From Candidatus Saccharimonadales bacterium (GTDB lineage Bacteria; Patescibacteriota; Saccharimonadia; Saccharimonadales; JBGSXW01): a stretch of DNA of 64,000 nucleotides. A program made the position numbers and the translations under genes. The notes under the pieces are model-generated. The model made no database searches. It saw only the letters and a program-made list of their open reading frames with translations, and was not told where the DNA came from. Positions 3,725 to 61,025 of this stretch are shown piece after piece; the first letter of the stretch is position 1, and the number at the start of each line of letters is the position of its first letter. The stretch is from assembly GCA_041751215.1 (NCBI GenBank), contig JBGSXW010000002.1, positions 350,591 through 414,590 on the forward strand, written 5' to 3'.

Positions 3725-3727
3725 CTC

Positions 3728-3746
3728 TTGGTCGGGGTGAGAGGAC
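3728..3746 (-). repeat. exact 19-nt copy of the tRNA-Pro(CGG) 3' end (att-like direct repeat)
   Basis: TTGGTCGGGGTGAGAGGAC at 3728-3746 is identical to 3933-3951. It starts 4 nt after the stop of the upstream CDS. Confidence 0.85.
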
Positions 3747-3933: not shown

Positions 3934-4008
3934 TGGTCGGGGTGAGAGGACTTGAACCTCCGACCTCCGCGTCCCGAACGCGGCGCGCTACCACTGCGCC
4001 ACACCCCG
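3934..4008 (-). tRNA. tRNA-Pro (anticodon CGG)
   Basis: CGGGGTG/CACCCCG acceptor, CCGCG-TTCGGGA-CGCGG anticodon arm, GGAGG-TTCAAGT-CCTCT T-arm, encoded ACCA. Confidence 0.95.
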
Positions 4009-4227: not shown

Positions 4228-4304
4228 TGGTCGGGGTGAAAGGACTCGAACCTTCGACCCCCGCGTCCCAAACGCGGTGCGCTAGCCAACTGCGCTACAC
4301 CCCG
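4228..4304 (-). tRNA. tRNA-Pro (anticodon TGG)
   Basis: CGGGGTG/CACCCCG acceptor, CCGCG-TTTGGGA-CGCGG anticodon arm, GAAGG-TTCGAGT-CCTTT T-arm, encoded ACCA. Confidence 0.95.
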
Positions 4305-4318
4305 ACGAACAGAGGCGA

Positions 4319-4858
4319 TTATACCAACTCAAACCGATAAATACTACTGTTTTGTAGCTGCTTTACGGTACTCATTTCTTCTGGTTGACGATTCTCAGCT
4401 ATCACTTGTACCATTCTACCGGTGCCGTTGTGACTAACAACTAAGATGTTCTCAGCAGGCAAAGCCCGTAACTTATCTAAGCCTCGCTTAACTTTTTCGT
4501 ACATTTCTTGCTTAGAATCAGCACCGGTGATGGGAGGTCCATTTTTTTCACGTTCAAAATACTCGTCTCTTTTCATGCCGGTTGCTTCACCAACATTTCG
4601 TTCAGTCAGCTCTGGTATGATCACAATCTTGTCGGAATCATAACCGATAACATTGGCGATAATTTTAGCACTATCTAGTGCTCTAGATTTAGGAGAGCTA
4701 ACGACTAGGTCTATGCCCTTTGACCTCAGCTCTTCAGCAACACTCTTTGCTTGATCTCGGCCAATGTCAGTCAGCGGAGAGTCAATCCCATCGCCAGCAA
4801 TTACGCCGTCGCGATTAGCTTGACTCTCGCCGTGCCTAACAAAGTAAACAGTTTTCAC
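4319..4858 (-). CDS. histidine phosphatase family protein (phosphoglycerate-mutase-like)
   Basis: N-terminal VYFVRHGESQAN (RHG catalytic motif) and a later SH(N)G motif. Confidence 0.8.
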   Translation of the reverse strand: MKTVYFVRHGESQANRDGVIAGDGIDSPLTDIGRDQAKSVAEELRSKGIDLVVSSPKSRALDSAKIIANVIGYDSDKIVIIPELTERNVGEATGMKRDEYFEREKNGPPITGADSKQEMYEKVKRGLDKLRALPAENILVVSHNGTGRMVQVIAENRQPEEMSTVKQLQNSSIYRFELV

Positions 4859-27447: not shown

Positions 27448-27603
27448 TTTTGTTGTTGCCTTTATGCCTTAAGCATATGCGTAAAACCATAGCATGTCAA
27501 AGAAGAAGAGGCTGTTGTCCGATTGATAATGAACTTGAATTACTGCCGCTGGGCTCGGTAGATTCGCAGTAGTTGCGGAAGTGAGAAGTCTACGGGTTCA
27601 TAC

Positions 27604-27773
27604 TAAGACCAAAATCTGGGCGTCTACGACAAGGAAGGTGCGAGCAGCGGAAGGGTTGCTGTGCTTATTAGCACTGCGCCCTGAGCAGCGGAGCACCTGA
27701 CGCAGAGTCACAGGTGCCAGCAGCTGGGCTGCTGGGCAGTGGGACGATCGTAGCGTTCAGACTTTTGGTCTTA
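27604..27773 (-). repeat. GC-rich structured intergenic element, copy A
   Basis: A 25-bp closing helix (27604-27629 with 27748-27773) encloses at least three hairpins. The core 27630-27707 is homologous to copies B and C. There is no ORF. Confidence 0.65.
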
Positions 27774-27774
27774 C

Positions 27775-28971
27775 TTAGCGTTCGGAGGTTACGAAGGTGA
27801 GCGCGTAACCAATCCGGCCAGCTCGTCCCGCTCGTCCAATACGGTGAACATAGTCATCGTAGGTGTTGGGCTGAGAGTAGTTAACAACGTGAGTAATGTC
27901 GGCAACATCAATACCTCGAGCTGCAACGTCAGTAGCAACTAGAATCGTAATCTCGTTGGTACGGAATCGATTTAGTGCTCGCTGACGAGCTCCCTGGGTT
28001 TTTCCGCCGTGAATAGCGTCGGCTGCAAAGCCACGTGATTGTAGCTCTTTGCTAAGTCGTTCAACGCTACGCTGGGTGTCGTCAAAAACTAGAACTTTAG
28101 CAACTTTTTCGTCAATCAAGACGTCGTGGAGCTTATCGATCTTAGTCATGTTGCCCTGGTATTGGATGACGCTTTGTTCAATATTCTCGCCGGTGTCTCC
28201 GGTTCGGACCGAAACGTGCACAGGATCATTCAAGAAAGTGCGCATTAGGGCCTCGACCTTGTTGTCGATTGTGGCAGAGAAAAAGAATGACTGTCTAGGA
28301 GTTGCGAGTTCACCGAGCAGTTGACGGATATCATTAATGAATCCCATGTCTACCATACGGTCAACTTCGTCCAGAACAACAATGTTGAACTTAGAAAGAT
28401 TTAAGGTGCCGCGCTCAACGTGATCTTTGATGCGTCCTGGAGTTCCGATAACAATATCGGGGCGAGCCTTAAGGTCTCGTAACTGAGGACCCATTGGTGC
28501 TCCACCAATTAGCATGGCGCCGCGCAAGCCACTGCCAACGGCAAATGACTTACATTCATCTTGAATCTGAATAGCTAGCTCACGGGTTGGTGCAAGCACC
28601 AAAGCGTTTGAGTTGCGATCATTCATCAATTTGTTTAGCACTGGAATTGCAAATGCTGCAGTCTTACCGGTACCGGTGTTTGCGATACCAATAATATCGC
28701 GACCTTCTAGGCCGGCAGGAATCGATTGATCCTGAATTGGTGAAGGTGTTTCGTAACCTTTAGAAATAACATTGCGCTTAATAAGGTCGTTAATTTCAAA
28801 GTTGTCAAACGAGTGAGTAGCGTTATAAACGACTTCCTCAACTGGCTTAGCAGTCTTGATGAACTTACTAGGGTGGATGTATTGCTTGCCGGGACGTGAT
28901 GGTCGTCGGCTGTTAAAGCTTGATCGTCCGTTACGGGGGCGAGAGCTATATATAGTTTTTGGTCTAGGCAT
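27775..28971 (-). CDS. DEAD-box ATP-dependent RNA helicase
   Basis: Q motif, AxTGTGKTAAF, VLDEVD, SAT and HRIGRAGRAG. Confidence 0.93.
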   Translation of the reverse strand: MPRPKTIYSSRPRNGRSSFNSRRPSRPGKQYIHPSKFIKTAKPVEEVVYNATHSFDNFEINDLIKRNVISKGYETPSPIQDQSIPAGLEGRDIIGIANTGTGKTAAFAIPVLNKLMNDRNSNALVLAPTRELAIQIQDECKSFAVGSGLRGAMLIGGAPMGPQLRDLKARPDIVIGTPGRIKDHVERGTLNLSKFNIVVLDEVDRMVDMGFINDIRQLLGELATPRQSFFFSATIDNKVEALMRTFLNDPVHVSVRTGDTGENIEQSVIQYQGNMTKIDKLHDVLIDEKVAKVLVFDDTQRSVERLSKELQSRGFAADAIHGGKTQGARQRALNRFRTNEITILVATDVAARGIDVADITHVVNYSQPNTYDDYVHRIGRAGRAGRIGYALTFVTSER

Positions 28972-31981: not shown

Positions 31982-32058
31982 GGGCCCATAGCTCAGCCGG
32001 TTAGAGCACCTGCCTTTTAAGCAGGGTGTCCTGGGTTCGAGTCCCAGTGGGCCCTCCA
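31982..32058 (+). tRNA. tRNA-Lys (anticodon TTT)
   Basis: GGGCCCA/TGGGCCC acceptor, CCTGC-CTTTTAA-GCAGG anticodon arm, CTGGG-TTCGAGT-CCCAG T-arm, encoded CCA. Confidence 0.95.
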
Positions 32059-32095
32059 ATCTAAGAACCTGCCGTATGGCGGGTTTTTAGATTGG
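32056..32095 (+). terminator. intrinsic terminator after tRNA-Lys
   Basis: CCAATCTAA...AACCTGCC-GTAT-GGCGGGTT-TTT...TTAGATTGG, a nested stem ending in a T-run. Confidence 0.6.
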
Positions 32096-32096
32096 A

Positions 32097-32282
32097 GAGA
32101 TTTATTGCGTACTCGAACCCATGACGGCGTAGCCGTGGGTTCGTTCGTGAGGAGCTCTCGCAGAAGCTTGCTTCGAGAAAGTGACGAAACGGCGAACGTA
32201 AGTGAGCGCCCCCGGTGGGCCAATTTCAATCGCGAGCTGAGAGGGCGAGCGTAGATGCAAATTGCCCCCAGTGGGTTTTCAC
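32097..32282 (+). repeat. tRNA-trailer module D (homolog of E2) with degenerate tRNA-Lys 3'-end copies
   Basis: Hairpin CGAACCC-ATG-ACGGC-GTA-GCCGT-GGGTTCG (32114-32143). 32138-32177 matches E2 at 33/40. CCCCCGGTGGGCC (32209-32221) and CCCCCAGTGGG (32265-32275) echo the tRNA segment CCCAGTGGGCC. Confidence 0.6.
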
Positions 32283-45136: not shown

Positions 45137-47059
45137 TTAGTCGCGTCTTAGTAATGTCGTGAAGGCTTCGGGCGGAATATCAACCTTCCCAAACTTCTTC
45201 ATTCGCTCTTTGCCTTTTTTCTGTTTGGCTAGAACTTTCTTCTTCCGCGAGACATCTCCACCGTACAAACCTTTGGTCACATCTTTACGAAAAGCCGACA
45301 AGTCCTCGCGGGCAATAAACTTTGACCCGATAGCTGCCTGGAGGCTAACTTTAAACTGTTGCCGCGGGATAATGTCTTTGAGTTTTTTGACAGTTTCGCG
45401 CCCAAGACGATCAGCTTCGCTGCGATGAGCCATCAAACTTAGGCTGTCTACCATCTCGCCAGCCACTAAAAAGTCGACTCGGACTAGTTCTTCGGTTCGG
45501 TAATCATCGAGTTCGTAGTTAAAAGACCCGTAGCCACTTGTGGAGCTTTTGAGTTGATCGTAAAAATCGGTTAAAACGTTTGCCAACGGAGCTTCAAAGG
45601 TAATTAGTGCGGTTTTATCGTCAATAAAGTCTAGGCCTTTTTGCAGACCGCGTAGTCCAACCACTAACTGAATGACTGTCCCGACATAATCTTTGGGGAC
45701 AATTATCTCGCCCTTGATCCAAGGTTCTCTGATTTCAACAATGCGACTAACGTCCGGAAGTTCTCCGGCATTTTTAATTTCTATGTCTTCGCCATCGGTC
45801 AGGCTAACTTCGTATCTGGTTGAGGGGTTGGTGATGATCAAATCTAAGTCATAGCCGCGTTCTAGCCGTTCTTTAACAATCTCGAGATGCAGCAACCCTA
45901 AGAATCCCACTCTAAATCCAAAGCCTAGAACCTGCGAAGTTTCTGGCTCGTAGCTCAACGAAGCGTCGTTAAGCGAAAGTTTAGATAGCGCATCCTTGAC
46001 CCGGTTATAGTCGTCGGATGAAGCAGGGAATAGACCAGCATAAACAAATGGTTTGACTTGCTTATATCCTGGCAGCGCTTCTGAGGCAGGATTTAATTGC
46101 AAAGTAACAGTGTCGCCAACTCGAGCATCGGCAACCGTTTTAAGATCAGTTACGATGTAGCCAATCTCGCCAGTTTGCAGAAACTTTGTGGCTTGCCGCT
46201 TAGGAGTCGTGAAGCCAACTTCATTGGCAATTGCGCCTGCACTTGTAGCCATCATTTTAAGCTTGGCTTCTTTATCAATTGCGCCGTCAACAACTCGAAC
46301 CGATAAAATAACTCCTCGATAATCGTCGTACATGGAGTCAAAAATTAGAGCACGAGTCGGAGCGTCTTTATCGCCGGTCGGCGGTGGAACCTGTTCAACT
46401 ACCGAACTTAATACGCGGTCGACGCCCTCACCGGTTTTAGCCGAAATCGGGATAATGTCTTCTTTGCCGCAACCTAACAGGTTAATAATTTCCTGGCTAA
46501 CTCGGTTAACATCTGAGGCCGGCAGATCAATCTTGTTAATGACTGGGATTATCTTTAGGTCAGCCTCGATTGCTAAATAAACATTGGCAAGTGTTTGCGC
46601 TTGAATCCCTTGAGTAGCGTCAACTACTAGCAAGGCGCCCTCGCAGGCTACTAGGCTACGAGAAACTTCGTAGCTGAAATCAACATGACCTGGTGTATCA
46701 ATTAAATTTAGTTGGTGGCCTTGATAATCCATCCGTACGGGCTGCAACTTAATCGTTATGCCCTTTTCGCGCTCGAGATCCATTTGGTCAAGCAGTTGAG
46801 CCTTCATTTCTCGCCGCTCCACTGTATTGGTCAATTCGAGCAAGCGATCAGCTAGCGTAGATTTGCCGTGATCTATATGCGCAATAATACAAAAGTTCCT
46901 GATCGCCTGCTGACCGACCGCATTCACCTGCCTACCGGCAGAGCCGGCTGCACCGTGAATGCTCTTGGCGGACTGCTTTGTCTGTGACTCCGGTACTCGC
47001 TCGTCGTATGTCATATACGGCGTGCTCCGTTCCTCGTCACATCCTTGCATTCCATCCAA
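45137..47059 (-). CDS. lepA: translation elongation factor 4 (LepA)
   Basis: IIAHIDHGKST, DTPGH, NKID and the LepA C-terminal domain. The N-terminal extension is uncertain (alternative start ATG 47014). Confidence 0.95.
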   Translation of the reverse strand: MDGMQGCDEERSTPYMTYDERVPESQTKQSAKSIHGAAGSAGRQVNAVGQQAIRNFCIIAHIDHGKSTLADRLLELTNTVERREMKAQLLDQMDLEREKGITIKLQPVRMDYQGHQLNLIDTPGHVDFSYEVSRSLVACEGALLVVDATQGIQAQTLANVYLAIEADLKIIPVINKIDLPASDVNRVSQEIINLLGCGKEDIIPISAKTGEGVDRVLSSVVEQVPPPTGDKDAPTRALIFDSMYDDYRGVILSVRVVDGAIDKEAKLKMMATSAGAIANEVGFTTPKRQATKFLQTGEIGYIVTDLKTVADARVGDTVTLQLNPASEALPGYKQVKPFVYAGLFPASSDDYNRVKDALSKLSLNDASLSYEPETSQVLGFGFRVGFLGLLHLEIVKERLERGYDLDLIITNPSTRYEVSLTDGEDIEIKNAGELPDVSRIVEIREPWIKGEIIVPKDYVGTVIQLVVGLRGLQKGLDFIDDKTALITFEAPLANVLTDFYDQLKSSTSGYGSFNYELDDYRTEELVRVDFLVAGEMVDSLSLMAHRSEADRLGRETVKKLKDIIPRQQFKVSLQAAIGSKFIAREDLSAFRKDVTKGLYGGDVSRKKKVLAKQKKGKERMKKFGKVDIPPEAFTTLLRRD

Positions 47060-47189
47060 GTCGGCAACAGCGATTTTTTATAGAAGCGGGTCATTAGGTT
47101 AATAGTATAAGATCTTGAGCTAAAAGCACAAAGCGAAATCTATAAAATTATATAACTTCCTGACCTTCTTTTCAGCAATCAAGCACAAG

Positions 47190-47394
47190 GAAGCCTAGAT
47201 TCCTGCTTCCGCAGGAATGACAAGGTTTTGGTCTAAGTTCTTTTCGCGGATGAAATGCAAGGAAGATGTGAAGCACAGAGGCGGGCTGTGCAAGTGGCAC
47301 TGCCCCCGAGTACTGGAGCGTCTGACGCAGAGCCGGCAGAGCTGTTGGCTCTGCCAACAGGCAGGCCGGCGACAGTTCGCCGTGAGAGGTTAGG
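47190..47394 (-). repeat. GC-rich structured intergenic element, copy B
   Basis: The core 47258-47332 aligns to copy C at 53/75 without gaps (hand count) and to copy A with small indels. Hairpins lie at 47199-47218, 47335-47355 and 47367-47382. It abuts the murJ stop. Confidence 0.6.
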
Positions 47395-60525: not shown

Positions 60526-60540
60526 AAGGGTAATTATACA

Positions 60541-60729
60541 CGTCGAGAAGTGGCGGCCTTGTTAACAGAACCGCAGTGCTTGATTTGGTTTCTGGCCAGG
60601 AAGAACTGAAACACAGACCGATGCTGTGTAACTGACACCGCTCGGGAGTATTGGAGGCTCTGACGCCGCCAGAAAGCAAAAGGCCGGCAGCGCAGTGAGC
60701 TATGCTCGCTGGCAGGCCGGCCGATCAAG
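60541..60729 (-). repeat. GC-rich structured intergenic element, copy C
   Basis: The core 60596-60670 aligns to copy B at 53/75 without gaps. The hairpin GCTGTGT/ACACCGC covaries with GCTGTGC/GCACTGC of A and B. An 8-bp hairpin CAGTGAGC-TAT-GCTCGCTG is present. Confidence 0.6.
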
Positions 60730-60734
60730 TTCTG

Positions 60735-60781
60735 TGGTAGCGGCGACTGGATTTGAACCAGTGACCCCAGGCTTATGAGTC
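60735..60781 (-). pseudogene. truncated tRNA(CAT): 3' half only (anticodon loop to CCA)
   Basis: GACTCATAAGCCTGGGGTCACTGGTTCAAATCCAGTCGCCGCTACCA is 40/47 identical to the 3' half of the intact tRNA at 60949-61025, with compensatory T-stem changes. There is no matching 5' acceptor strand upstream. Confidence 0.8.
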
Positions 60782-60948
60782 TTGCCTTTGACGCTAATGC
60801 TAACGACTTCACCAAGGTGTACGAACGAGCATCACTGCGTTTTCGTCAGCACATGATTGGTGCTATTGCCGTCAACTCTAGCCGTCAGAATGATTAACAC
60901 GAGCAGGGATTAAGTTGTTATTTGTATAACTTTTTTAATAAAGTCAAA

Positions 60949-61025
60949 TGGTAGCACCGACAGGAATTGAACCTGTGACCTTAGGCTTATGAGTCCTACG
61001 CTCTAACCAACTGAGCTACGGTGCC
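60949..61025 (-). tRNA. tRNA with CAT anticodon (elongator Met or lysidine-dependent Ile2)
   Basis: GGCACCG/CGGTGCT acceptor, loop CTCATAA, T-arm ACAGG-TTCAATT-CCTGT, encoded ACCA. It is not initiator-like. There is an A31-G39 mismatch. Confidence 0.9.

What the first reader, a model, noticed from the sequence alone, without database searches (positions are those of the whole stretch)
27604..27773. Element A: 170-nt GC-rich multi-hairpin element closed by a 25-bp helix, founding copy of a three-member family
27604-27629 (TAAGACCAAAATCTGGGCGTCTACGA) pairs with 27748-27773 (TCGTAGCGTTCAGACTTTTGGTCTTA). The pairing is 11+4+4+6 bp with two single-nt bulges and two G-T pairs. The enclosed 118 nt hold three further hairpins: GCACCTG-N11-CAGGTGC (27693-27717), CCAGCAGC-TGG-GCTGCTGG (27717-27735) and GCTGTGC-N6-GCACTGC (27658-27677). 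My hand count of 27661-27720 gives 62% GC, against 45-48% in sampled neighbouring genes. There is no ORF, and the element begins 1 nt after the DEAD-box helicase stop codon. Its core (27630-27707) is clearly homologous to 47258-47332 and 60596-60670. All three copies lie between two minus-strand genes in the same orientation. That arrangement fits an RNA-level role (3'UTR/5'UTR structure, processing or stability element, sRNA) or a MITE-like repeat, since the closing helix also looks like 16-bp terminal inverted repeats. 27540-27603 appears to carry a partial second copy of the 3' part (shared GCTGGGCT).
Basis: seen in the sequence. Interest (0 to 1): 0.72.

Follow-up and report, generated by a model that had tools for sequence, protein, structure and literature searches.

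The report
Structured palindromic repeat element of Saccharibacteria
The 170-base element is a real copy of a widespread, undescribed family of folded repeat elements in Saccharibacteria that sit between genes, sometimes land in frame inside genes, and keep an RNA-like fold on one strand.

Summary
The element at 27604-27773 is real.

The conserved unit is a ~100-nt irregular hairpin ("rod"). In Saccharibacteria it also carries a second hairpin and a copy-specific closing helix. It is absent from Rfam 15.

Pattern and covariance-model searches found it in 55 genome loci, 41 labelled Saccharibacteria, and in at least 120 metagenome stretches. Covariation is very strong: 26-29 of 32 pairs show compensatory changes. 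G:U outnumbers A·C 132:37, which places the fold on the purine-rich strand. For A-C that strand is antisense to the flanking genes.

The family behaves like Rickettsia palindromic elements or ERIC:
- Orthologous sites are empty in relatives.
- Two identical copies sit at different loci in one MAG.
- Some copies have TA-flanked ends.
- In-frame insertions split FolD, MsrA, Dus and MnmA and supply a new LepA N-terminus.

One locus (alaS-ftsA) keeps the element across diverged lineages, and there it is better conserved than the flanking genes.

Copy A is a derived, truncated variant, not the founder. The mobility mechanism and any host role remain unknown.

The parts
27604..27773 (+). Copy A, whole element. 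It is a derived variant that lacks the base of the conserved hairpin. It is bounded by TA at 27604-27605 and 27772-27773.
   Evidence: Fold. R1 124 bits. R2 57 bits. Ends and TA flanks.
27604..27629 (+). A: 5' strand of the closing helix P0. It pairs with 27748-27773 over 25 bp, with two 1-nt bulges and G-T pairs.
   Evidence: dot-bracket. The sequence is not conserved in B, C or D.
27748..27773 (+). A: 3' strand of the closing helix P0. It ends 1 nt before the helicase stop codon at 27775-27777.
27633..27701 (+). A: conserved core of the rod.
- G27633:C27701
- tandem G.A at 27634-35 / 27699-700
- P1: 27636-41 / 27693-98
- GA/GGA loop: 27642-43 / 27690-92
- 5-bp helix with an A.A mismatch: 27644-48 / 27685-89
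- GGA/GA loop: 27649-51 / 27683-84
- apical hairpin: 27652-27682
27707..27745 (+). A: second hairpin. P3 is 27707-12 / 27740-45. The internal loop is GGTG/GCAG. P4 is 27717-24 / 27728-35, with loop TGG.
   Evidence: compensatory changes in P3 and P4 across copies.
47232..47394 (+). Copy B.
- P0: 47240-49 / 47380-89, with three G:U pairs; extension 47232-36 / 47390-94
- core: 47258-47326
- second hairpin: 47332-47370
TA is present at 47234-35 and 47391-92. The right end lies next to the murJ stop codon at 47395-97.
   Evidence: P0 pairing was read by hand from the sequence.
60570..60738 (+). Copy C, canonical Y shape.
- P0: 60570-84 / 60724-38
- rod including its base: 60583-60684
- second hairpin: 60682-60722
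It abuts a tRNA-Met 3'-half-like sequence on the opposite strand.
   Evidence: R2 64 bits. P0 pairing was read by hand from the sequence.
46905..47074 (-). Copy D, canonical and on the opposite strand.
- P0: 47074-62 / 46919-05
- rod: 47061-46960
- second hairpin: about 46959-46921
It replaces the first codons of lepA and supplies that gene's present start region.
   Evidence: R2 102.9 bits. lepA comparison.

Best explanation
Element A is one copy of a dispersed, non-coding, palindromic repeat family. The closest comparisons are Rickettsia palindromic elements, ERIC and Correia elements. The family has multiplied in this Saccharibacteria genome, with 4 copies in 64 kb.

Shown:
- The conserved unit is a ~100-nt irregular hairpin on the purine-rich strand. 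Watson-Crick helices alternate with conserved G.A/A.G mismatch pairs and one-base G bulges.
- In Saccharibacteria the unit also has a second hairpin (internal loop with GCAG on its 3' side) and a closing helix. The outer sequence of that helix differs from copy to copy.
- The helices are kept by compensatory substitutions.
- G:U pairs greatly outnumber A.C, so the selected fold belongs to one strand only.
- Copies are present or absent at orthologous sites.
- Two identical copies sit at unrelated loci in one MAG.
- Some well-preserved copies are bounded by TA, or CTA...TAG.
- Copies fill intergenic gaps up to the neighbouring stop or start codons.
- Several copies lie in frame inside unrelated housekeeping genes.

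Inferred:
- The element spreads, or spread, by insertion. The folded single strand, RNA or single-stranded DNA, is what the unknown mobilising machinery or a binding protein recognises, rather than conserved terminal repeats.
- Host selection then filters insertions. The antisense strand is pyrimidine-rich and almost free of stop codons. Only one sense frame is open. This fits both the 2:1 excess of antisense orientation and the tolerated in-frame insertions.
- Some old copies, such as the one between alaS and ftsA, are kept under purifying selection in place and probably acquired a local role. That role is not identified.
For: Structure:
- Copy A folds at z -6.2.
- 17 of 36 pairs are compensatory among A, B and C alone.
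- Genome set A4 (54 sequences): 91.9% of cells paired, 26 of 32 pairs compensatory, covariation 0.633 against 0.07-0.12 for slid controls, 0 of 500 shuffles reach it.
- Independent metagenome set A6: 95.2% paired, 29 of 32 compensatory, 0.605 against at most 0.10.
- Strand: G:U 132 against A.C 37, including U:G in 38 of 54 sequences at one pair and G:U in 22 of 54 at another.

Not a known RNA family: no Rfam hit at gathering or E-value thresholds.

Distribution:
- 55 genome loci, 41 labelled Saccharibacteria or Saccharimonadales. The rest are Parcubacteria, Peribacteria, Dormiibacterota and a few others.
- At least 120 metagenome stretches.
- None in viral contigs, plasmids or phages.

Mobility:
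- In L060, murJ and lepA are 3 nt apart, and the helicase is followed by the next gene after 26 nt. The window has 335 and 327 nt at these sites, holding B+D and A.
- The closest relative has no element before lepA.
- No copies in 63 kb from four other Saccharibacteria, against 4 in the window.
- L005 and L042 share a 165-nt unit at 100% identity with unrelated flanks.
- The Dormiibacterota repeat unit is bounded by CTAGG...CCTAG.
- TA flanks occur in A and about 8 other independent copies.

Coding insertions: Pfam domains are split around the element in FolD, MsrA, Dus, MnmA (two species) and an amine-oxidase-like protein. N-terminal fusions occur in LepA, a hydrolase and RuvA.

Frame bias: antisense frames are open in 36, 32 and 39 of 54 copies against 14.7 expected. 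Sense frames are open in 3, 17 and 7.

Orientation among co-directional neighbours: 55 antisense against 26 sense.

Analogy: RPEs are about 150 bp and frequently sit in frame in unrelated genes. Correia elements are cut by RNase III at their inverted repeats (PMC10969869).
Against: - No transposase, reverse transcriptase or other recurrent mobile-element gene appears next to copies in about 135 loci.
- Terminal sequences are not conserved between copies, and TA flanks are present in only about a quarter of copies with well-defined ends. The classical MITE mechanism is therefore not demonstrated.
- The identical pair L005/L042 shows no target duplication.
- The core is conserved across phyla. 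The alaS-ftsA copy is retained in four diverged lineages at 74% identity, against 41-51% for flanking coding DNA. Both argue for function beyond selfish spread.
- Part of the apparent invariance of the G.A positions was imposed by the search patterns. Where they were left free they are conserved but not invariant, for example GGA in 39 of 69.
- No expression data were available. Whether RNA or single-stranded DNA carries the fold is unknown.
- Gene calls used for orientation are crude ORF calls.
Confidence: 0.55

Rival explanations
1. The family is a host-functional structured RNA. It would be either a multi-copy trans-acting small RNA or protein-binding RNA, or a cis-acting element that shapes transcript ends or insulates neighbouring transcription units. 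Copy gains would come from duplication, and the coding insertions would be accidents.
For: - The core is conserved across phyla with RNA-type covariation, conserved G:U pairs and G.A motifs.
- The alaS-ftsA copy is retained in four lineages, is better conserved than the flanking genes, and shows compensatory changes in its closing helix.
- mnmA-upstream copies occur in three loci.
- In several sense-upstream copies the Shine-Dalgarno sequence or start codon lies in the 3' strand of the closing helix: rpmA in L006 and L008, rpsC in L014, and L029.
- A sits exactly between the helicase stop codon and the promoter-like site of the next gene.
Against: - Neighbouring genes are heterogeneous.
- About 21% of copies lie between divergent genes, where no 3' end needs forming.
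- Most copies are antisense to the genes around them, and no plus-strand promoter-like site was found for A, B or C.
- No U-tract follows the element, and terminator-like sites are not enriched in the window.
- Copy number varies from 0 in 63 kb to 4 in 64 kb between related genomes.
- A true sRNA gene would not be expected inside FolD, MsrA, Dus or MnmA.
Confidence: 0.25
2. The element acts as single-stranded DNA, like REP/REPIN sequences or the end hairpins of IS200/IS605. A tyrosine HUH transposase encoded elsewhere would recognise the folded strand. G.T and G.A pairs would be features of a DNA hairpin.
For: - The fold is strand-specific, with G:T tolerated and conserved purine-purine mismatches.
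- There are no conserved terminal inverted repeats, and the identical pair shows no target duplication.
- Orientation is biased relative to co-directional genes.
- No adjacent transposase is found, as expected for elements mobilised in trans.
Against: - No conserved 4-5-nt target motif appears at the left boundary.
- If genes follow replication, the folded strand of most copies would be the leading-strand template. That is the opposite of what IS200/IS605 biology predicts. This is an inference from orientation, not a test.
- A 100-nt rod with several conserved non-canonical motifs is far larger than known HUH recognition hairpins (own knowledge).
- No RAYT or TnpA gene was seen, but whole genomes were not searched.
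Confidence: 0.1
3. The element is the scaffold of a guide or bridge RNA left behind by a transposon-encoded nuclease or recombinase (TnpB/IscB omega-RNA or IS110 bridge RNA). The flanking sequence would serve as the guide.
For: - Its size is about 100-170 nt.
- It has a conserved scaffold with variable ends that abut unrelated flanks.
- It is multi-copy and non-autonomous.
Against: - No TnpB, IscB or IS110 gene lies next to any copy in about 135 loci.
- The internal loops are the conserved parts and the helices are the variable parts. This is the reverse of a programmable bridge RNA.
- No Rfam hit to the families covering such RNAs.
Confidence: 0.03
4. The element is an ordinary cis-regulatory leader such as a riboswitch, ribosomal-protein leader or RNA thermometer, or an ordinary intrinsic terminator of the adjacent gene.
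For: - D lies directly upstream of lepA on the same strand, and its 3' hairpin covers a candidate start codon.
- Some copies sequester a Shine-Dalgarno sequence.
Against: - LepA in relatives has no such leader, and D replaces its original start.
- Downstream genes are unrelated.
- A, B and C have no downstream gene on their own strand.
- There is no U-tract.
Confidence: 0.03

Closest known systems
Rickettsia palindromic elements (RPE)
   Same: - Both are short (about 100-170 bp) palindromic repeats in a reduced genome.
- Both are found between genes and repeatedly in frame inside unrelated housekeeping genes, adding a peptide without destroying the protein.
- For both, the mobilising mechanism is unknown.
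RPE facts come from PMC10969869.
   Different: - The host clade is different: Saccharibacteria and other Patescibacteria, with some copies in Dormiibacterota.
- The core is conserved across phyla.
- A strand-specific RNA-type fold with conserved G.A motifs and G:U pairs is demonstrated here by covariation.
- Most copies are intergenic.
- Sequence homology to RPE families was not tested.
ERIC (enterobacterial repetitive intergenic consensus) elements
   Same: - Both are imperfect palindromes of about 130 bp in intergenic regions, in either orientation.
- Copy number varies strongly between related genomes.
- Intragenic cases occur occasionally.
- Effects depend on the RNA fold.
ERIC facts come from PMC10969869.
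   Different: - There is no relation in host.
- Here the two arms are not simple inverted repeats. Conserved purine-purine mismatches make the two strands inequivalent.
- Many copies carry an extra second hairpin and a closing helix.
Correia / RUP-type MITEs (TA target duplication, RNase III-cleaved inverted repeats)
   Same: - Both are non-autonomous, about 100-200 bp, and carry long complementary ends that would form an RNase III-type duplex in a transcript.
- TA bounds several well-preserved copies here, including A.
   Different: - The terminal sequences are not conserved between copies or lineages.
- TA flanks are seen in only a minority of copies.
- No matching insertion sequence was found.
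- The conserved part is internal, not terminal.
REP / REPIN elements with RAYT transposases
   Same: - Both are extragenic hairpin-forming repeats at gene ends.
- Both are inherited over long periods and would be mobilised in trans.
- In both, structure matters more than terminal repeats.
This comparison rests on my own knowledge.
   Different: - The element has no GTAG-type conserved head.
- The element is much longer and more elaborate.
- No RAYT gene was identified.
- In-frame coding insertions are not typical of REPs.

Membership tests
MITE (miniature inverted-repeat transposable element) | Short, non-coding, multi-copy element | tested here: met
   The element is 120-185 nt. There are 4 copies in 64 kb, and several loci or MAGs hold 2-5 copies.
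MITE (miniature inverted-repeat transposable element) | Terminal inverted repeats shared by family members and by a parent insertion sequence | tested here: not met
   The ends are complementary within each copy, but their sequences differ between copies and lineages. No parent element was found in about 135 loci.
MITE (miniature inverted-repeat transposable element) | Target-site duplication | tested here: inconclusive
   TA bounds both ends in A, probably B, L003, L007, L023/26/48 (as CTA...TAG), L041, L017, L039, L139 and L120. It is absent in at least 20 other copies and in the identical pair L005/L042.
MITE (miniature inverted-repeat transposable element) | Presence/absence polymorphism at orthologous sites | tested here: met
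   The murJ-lepA gap is 3 nt in L060 and 335 nt with B+D in the window. The helicase-next gene gap is 26 nt against 327 nt with A. The alaS-ftsA site is filled in four lineages and empty in L001.
Rickettsia palindromic element-like repeats | In-frame insertion into unrelated protein-coding genes with the protein domains preserved on both sides | tested here: met
   Pfam domains are split in two stretches around the element in FolD, MsrA, Dus and MnmA (two species). N-terminal fusions occur in LepA, a hydrolase and RuvA.
Rickettsia palindromic element-like repeats | Sequence homology to a described RPE family | not tested
Any Rfam 15 RNA family | Score at or above the family gathering threshold | tested here: not met
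   Only tRNAs reach threshold in the window and in 18 related loci. E-value scans of copies A and D give nothing better than E = 9.5.
Kink-turn | Three-nucleotide bulge followed by tandem sheared G.A pairs | tested here: not met
   Tandem G.A positions are present, but the asymmetric loops are GA opposite GGA, a one-base bulge. The 3-D geometry is not testable here.
Intrinsic terminator | GC-rich hairpin followed by a U-tract on the transcribed strand | tested here: not met
   No terminator-like site covers the ends of A, B, C or D on either strand. The one hit inside A is an internal hairpin on the + strand.
Riboswitch or ribosomal-protein leader | Consistent position upstream of functionally related genes on the same strand | tested here: not met
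   Only about a third of copies have a sense gene downstream, and those genes are unrelated: lepA, mnmA, rpsC, ileS-like, ftsA, rpmA.
Transposon guide RNAs (TnpB/IscB omega-RNA, IS110 bridge RNA) | Adjacent nuclease or recombinase gene | tested here: not met
   Clustering of all ORFs in about 135 loci shows only housekeeping neighbours.
REP/REPIN-RAYT system | Cognate RAYT (IS200-like) gene in the genome | not testable with these tools
   Whole carrier genomes could not be scanned. No such gene was seen next to any copy.

The most novel reading that the evidence does not exclude
The conserved purine-rich rod, with helices spaced by G.A pairs and pseudo-symmetric GA/GGA loops, may be the recognition or catalytic core of a previously unknown way of moving DNA or RNA in ultra-small bacteria. 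That mechanism would read a folded single strand instead of terminal repeats. It would seed both new intergenic structures and new peptide segments in essential proteins. Alternatively, the rod may be a widespread protein-binding RNA module that Patescibacteria use to mark or insulate transcription units.
Probability: 0.2. Interest if true: 0.85.

Novelty: new variant of a known kind. Interest (0 to 1): 0.7.

Why it matters
Patescibacteria have tiny genomes with very little non-coding DNA. This family nevertheless occupies about 1% of the window.

It has had three visible effects:
- It has rewritten gene ends, including the start of lepA.
- It has added roughly 35-50-residue segments inside conserved enzymes.
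- It breaks short-read assemblies at its copies.

It is a strongly covarying structured motif that is absent from Rfam. It is also a second, independent example of "protein-coding palindromes" outside Rickettsia. Its abundance of diverged copies makes the fold, its partner and its mode of spread experimentally approachable in the cultivated Saccharibacteria.

On the practical side, it explains mis-annotated start codons and N-terminal extensions in these genomes.

Tried and rejected
- **Rfam.** I scanned the whole window and 18 related loci at gathering threshold, and copies A and D at E-value threshold. Nothing matched except tRNAs.
- **tRNA or tmRNA.** ARAGORN finds only six ordinary tRNAs.
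- **Known ribozyme or riboswitch cores.** I compared the sequence by eye with hammerhead CUGANGA/GAAA, TPP, SRP domain IV and T-box stem I. All were rejected on sequence and because Rfam found none of them.
- **Kink-turn.** The bulge is one base, not three.
- **Intrinsic terminator and plus-strand promoter scans around all four copies.** There is no terminator. Only minus-strand promoter-like sites were found.
- **lepA leader for copy D.** Relatives lack it, and D replaces the original start.
- **Partial extra copies at 27448-27603, 47075-47235 and 60740-60948.** No alignment reached z > 3 against shuffles, and there was no covariance-model hit.
- **A linked transposase or reverse transcriptase.** All-against-all clustering of ORFs in about 135 loci gave only housekeeping families.
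- **Phage or plasmid origin.** No hits in viral contigs, phage or plasmid collections.
- **Automatic definition of element ends by folding with long flanks.** This gave many spurious outer helices. Only copies with plausible lengths were used for the TA count.
- **Literature.** Searches for a description in Saccharibacteria, CPR or MITE papers found none.

Full report
**1. The observation**

The sequence at 27604-27773 is as described. As RNA, the plus strand folds at -87.3 kcal/mol against -60.6 ± 4.3 for shuffles (z -6.2). The minus strand gives -72.6 (z -5.8).

The ends form a 25-bp helix. The region lies in the 327-nt gap between a 306-aa gene of unknown family and a DEAD-box helicase, both on the minus strand. 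The right end is 1 nt from the helicase stop codon.

The two proposed homologues are real. In a three-way alignment, 17 of 36 consensus pairs already show compensatory changes.

Rfam 15 has no match at gathering threshold for the window, nor at E ≤ 10 for the region.

GC enrichment is modest: 58% against 41-58% nearby.

**2. A fourth copy and the true shape**

I built a covariance model from A, B and C and ran it without filters. It found a fourth copy, D, on the minus strand at 46920-47049 (65.7 bits).

A pattern shared by the four copies matched 55 loci among GTDB species genomes. Of these, 41 are labelled Saccharibacteria or Saccharimonadales. The rest are Parcubacteria, Peribacteria, Dormiibacterota and a few bins with other labels.

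The unit is a single long irregular hairpin of about 100 nt. From base to tip it runs as follows:
- UUGG/CCAA
- a bulged A
- UGCA/UGCG, with a conserved U:G
- a G·A pair
- 3 bp
- an AA/GCC loop
- a G:C pair
- tandem G·A/A·G
- a 6-bp helix
- a GA/GGA loop
- a 5-bp helix with a central N·A mismatch
- a GGA/GA loop
- 2 bp
- usually another tandem G·A
- an apical stem-loop

In most Saccharibacteria copies the rod is one arm of a Y. The other parts are a second hairpin, whose internal loop carries GCAG on its 3' side, and a closing helix. The inner 7 bp of that helix are conserved and the outer part is copy-specific. C and D have this canonical form. A and B have lost the 3' strand of the rod base, so they are derived copies.

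**3. Is the fold real, and on which strand?**

On the 54-sequence genome alignment, 91.9% of cells pair. 26 of 32 pairs have double changes. The covariation score is 0.633, against 0.07-0.12 when partners are slid by 1-3 columns, and no shuffle out of 500 reaches it.

An independent metagenome sample (78 distinct sequences, though aligned to the model) gives 95.2% paired, 29 of 32 pairs compensatory, and 0.605 against at most 0.10.

G:U pairs outnumber A·C 132 to 37. Two positions are predominantly wobble pairs. The strand is 63.5% purine. The selected fold therefore belongs to the purine-rich strand. That is the plus strand for A, B and C, antisense to all their neighbours, and the minus strand for D.

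One caveat applies. The search patterns fixed many of the G·A positions. Where the second pattern left them free they are conserved but not invariant: loop GGA in 39 of 69 (GNA in 58 of 69), its partner GA in 61 of 69, and the apical tandem GA in 42 and 54 of 69. A sub-family replaces GGAAG/CUGAC by GGCG/CAAC.

**4. Behaviour in genomes**

*(a) Gains.*
- In a related Saccharibacteria contig (L060), murJ and lepA are 3 nt apart, and the helicase is followed by the next gene after 26 nt. The window has 335 nt (B, an AT-rich spacer, D) and 327 nt (A) at these sites.
- The closest LepA relative (81% identity) has no element.
- The rod model finds no copy in 63 kb from four other Saccharibacteria, and four in the window.

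*(b) Recent copying.*
- L005 and L042, from one MAG, share a 165-nt unit at 100% identity with unrelated flanks.
- Three Dormiibacterota copies share a unit bounded exactly by CTAGG...CCTAG.

*(c) Ends.*
- A is bounded by TA on both sides, and B probably is too.
- About eight other independent, well-preserved copies also have TA (or CTA...TAG) at both ends.
- At least 20 copies do not, and terminal sequences are not shared between copies.

*(d) Position.*
- Pooling both samples, copies lie between co-directional genes (81), divergent genes (25) and convergent genes (13).
- Among the co-directional cases, 55 are antisense and 26 sense (crude ORF-based gene calls).
- Copies often reach the neighbouring stop or start codon.

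*(e) Coding insertions.*
- D removes the original start of lepA. Relatives begin M-(T/K)-Q-(D/E)-(K/N)-IRNF. NCBI annotates the window protein as 625 aa, starting inside the rod.
- Elsewhere the element lies in frame inside FolD, MsrA (twice), Dus, an amine-oxidase-like protein and MnmA (two species, antisense). It also sits at the N-termini of a hydrolase and of RuvA.
- Pfam domains are split around it.
- The antisense frames are almost stop-free: 36, 32 and 39 of 54 open, against 14.7 expected. Only one sense frame is commonly open.

*(f) No partner seen.*
- ORFs around about 135 copies cluster only into housekeeping families.
- There are no hits in viral, phage or plasmid collections.

**5. 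Evidence for selection in place**

An element in the same orientation, with a recognisably homologous closing helix, sits between alaS and ftsA in four lineages whose AlaRS proteins are 66-72% identical. It is followed by a conserved TGgTATAAT box and an ATG 7-8 nt later.

The element is 74% identical on average. The last 68 columns of alaS are 41% identical and the first 100 nt of ftsA are 51% identical. The closing helix and second hairpin show compensatory changes. One lineage (L001) has a 94-nt alaS-ftsA gap without the element.

Antisense copies also sit just upstream of mnmA in three loci. These copies are either maintained by selection or refreshed by conversion.

**6. Interpretation**

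The best fit is a dispersed, non-autonomous, structured palindromic element of the RPE/ERIC/Correia kind (PMC10969869). It differs from these in three ways:
- The conserved part is an internal single-strand fold, not the termini.
- The fold is strand-specific.
- The family spans several phyla.

How it moves is not shown. TA flanks hint at a TA-duplicating transposase. The lack of shared termini, and of any linked enzyme, argues that a folded RNA or single-stranded DNA is what gets recognised.

A host role for some copies is likely but unidentified. I could not support a terminator, leader, riboswitch or guide-RNA reading.

**7.

The corrections are:
- There are four copies in the window, and the family is large.
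- A is a truncated derivative.
- One proposed hairpin is not conserved.
- The proposed partial copy is not supported.
- The folded strand is antisense to the neighbouring genes.
- The elements also enter coding sequences.

Noticed in passing
window 60736-60795 (-): A sequence 79% identical to the 3' half (anticodon loop to CCA) of the tRNA-Met gene at 60949-61025 lies 214 nt from that gene, directly beside copy C. Neither ARAGORN nor Rfam calls it a tRNA, and no matching 5' half was seen. It looks like the leftover of an integration or rearrangement at the tRNA gene.
   Followed up: partly
window 46905-47059 (-): The lepA reading frame runs stop-free through copy D. The public annotation (625 aa) starts at an ATG that sits in the apical loop of the rod (47014). 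A GTG at 46927 is the alternative start. Relatives are 590-594 aa.
   Followed up: yes
window 47075-47239: An AT-rich 165-nt spacer lies between the divergent copies D and B. It carries the only promoter-like site in the region (47175-47147, minus strand, TATAAT). In a relative, murJ and lepA are 3 nt apart, so the origin of this spacer is unexplained.
   Followed up: partly
window 60526-60545 (-); L025, L084, L134, L137 upstream of ftsA: TATAAT boxes lie about 7 nt upstream of ATG start codons with no Shine-Dalgarno sequence between them. This suggests leaderless mRNAs are common in these organisms.
   Followed up: no
window 32054-32097 (+): A 20-bp near-perfect hairpin begins at the last bases of tRNA-Lys (31982-32058). 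It is unrelated to the element family.
   Followed up: no
window 3727-3746 and 4736-4756: Extra copies of the sequence at the ends of the two tRNA-Pro genes (3934-4008, 4228-4304) lie outside any called tRNA. They may be tRNA fragments.
   Followed up: no
L056 (Logan contig SRR28170463_1292014): The only other assembly carrying the identical helicase ends 84 nt past its stop codon, inside copy A. The element therefore breaks short-read assemblies.
   Followed up: no
L088:341-441 and 690-791: Two copies of the element lie within one MsrA gene, both in the sense frame. One is near the N-terminus and one splits the PMSR domain.
   Followed up: partly
L128:6285-6387, L116:6335-6437, L085:4061-4165: A sub-family replaces the conserved AGGAAG...CUGAC closure by AGGCG...CAAC. 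This changes one G.A/A.G pair set to G.A/C.A plus a G:C pair.
   Followed up: no
L006:2524-2625 and L008:234-335: In two genomes a hairpin-type copy sits directly upstream of rpmA (L27). The Shine-Dalgarno sequence (AAAGGA) lies inside the 3' strand of the closing helix, and the two copies differ by compensatory changes.
   Followed up: partly
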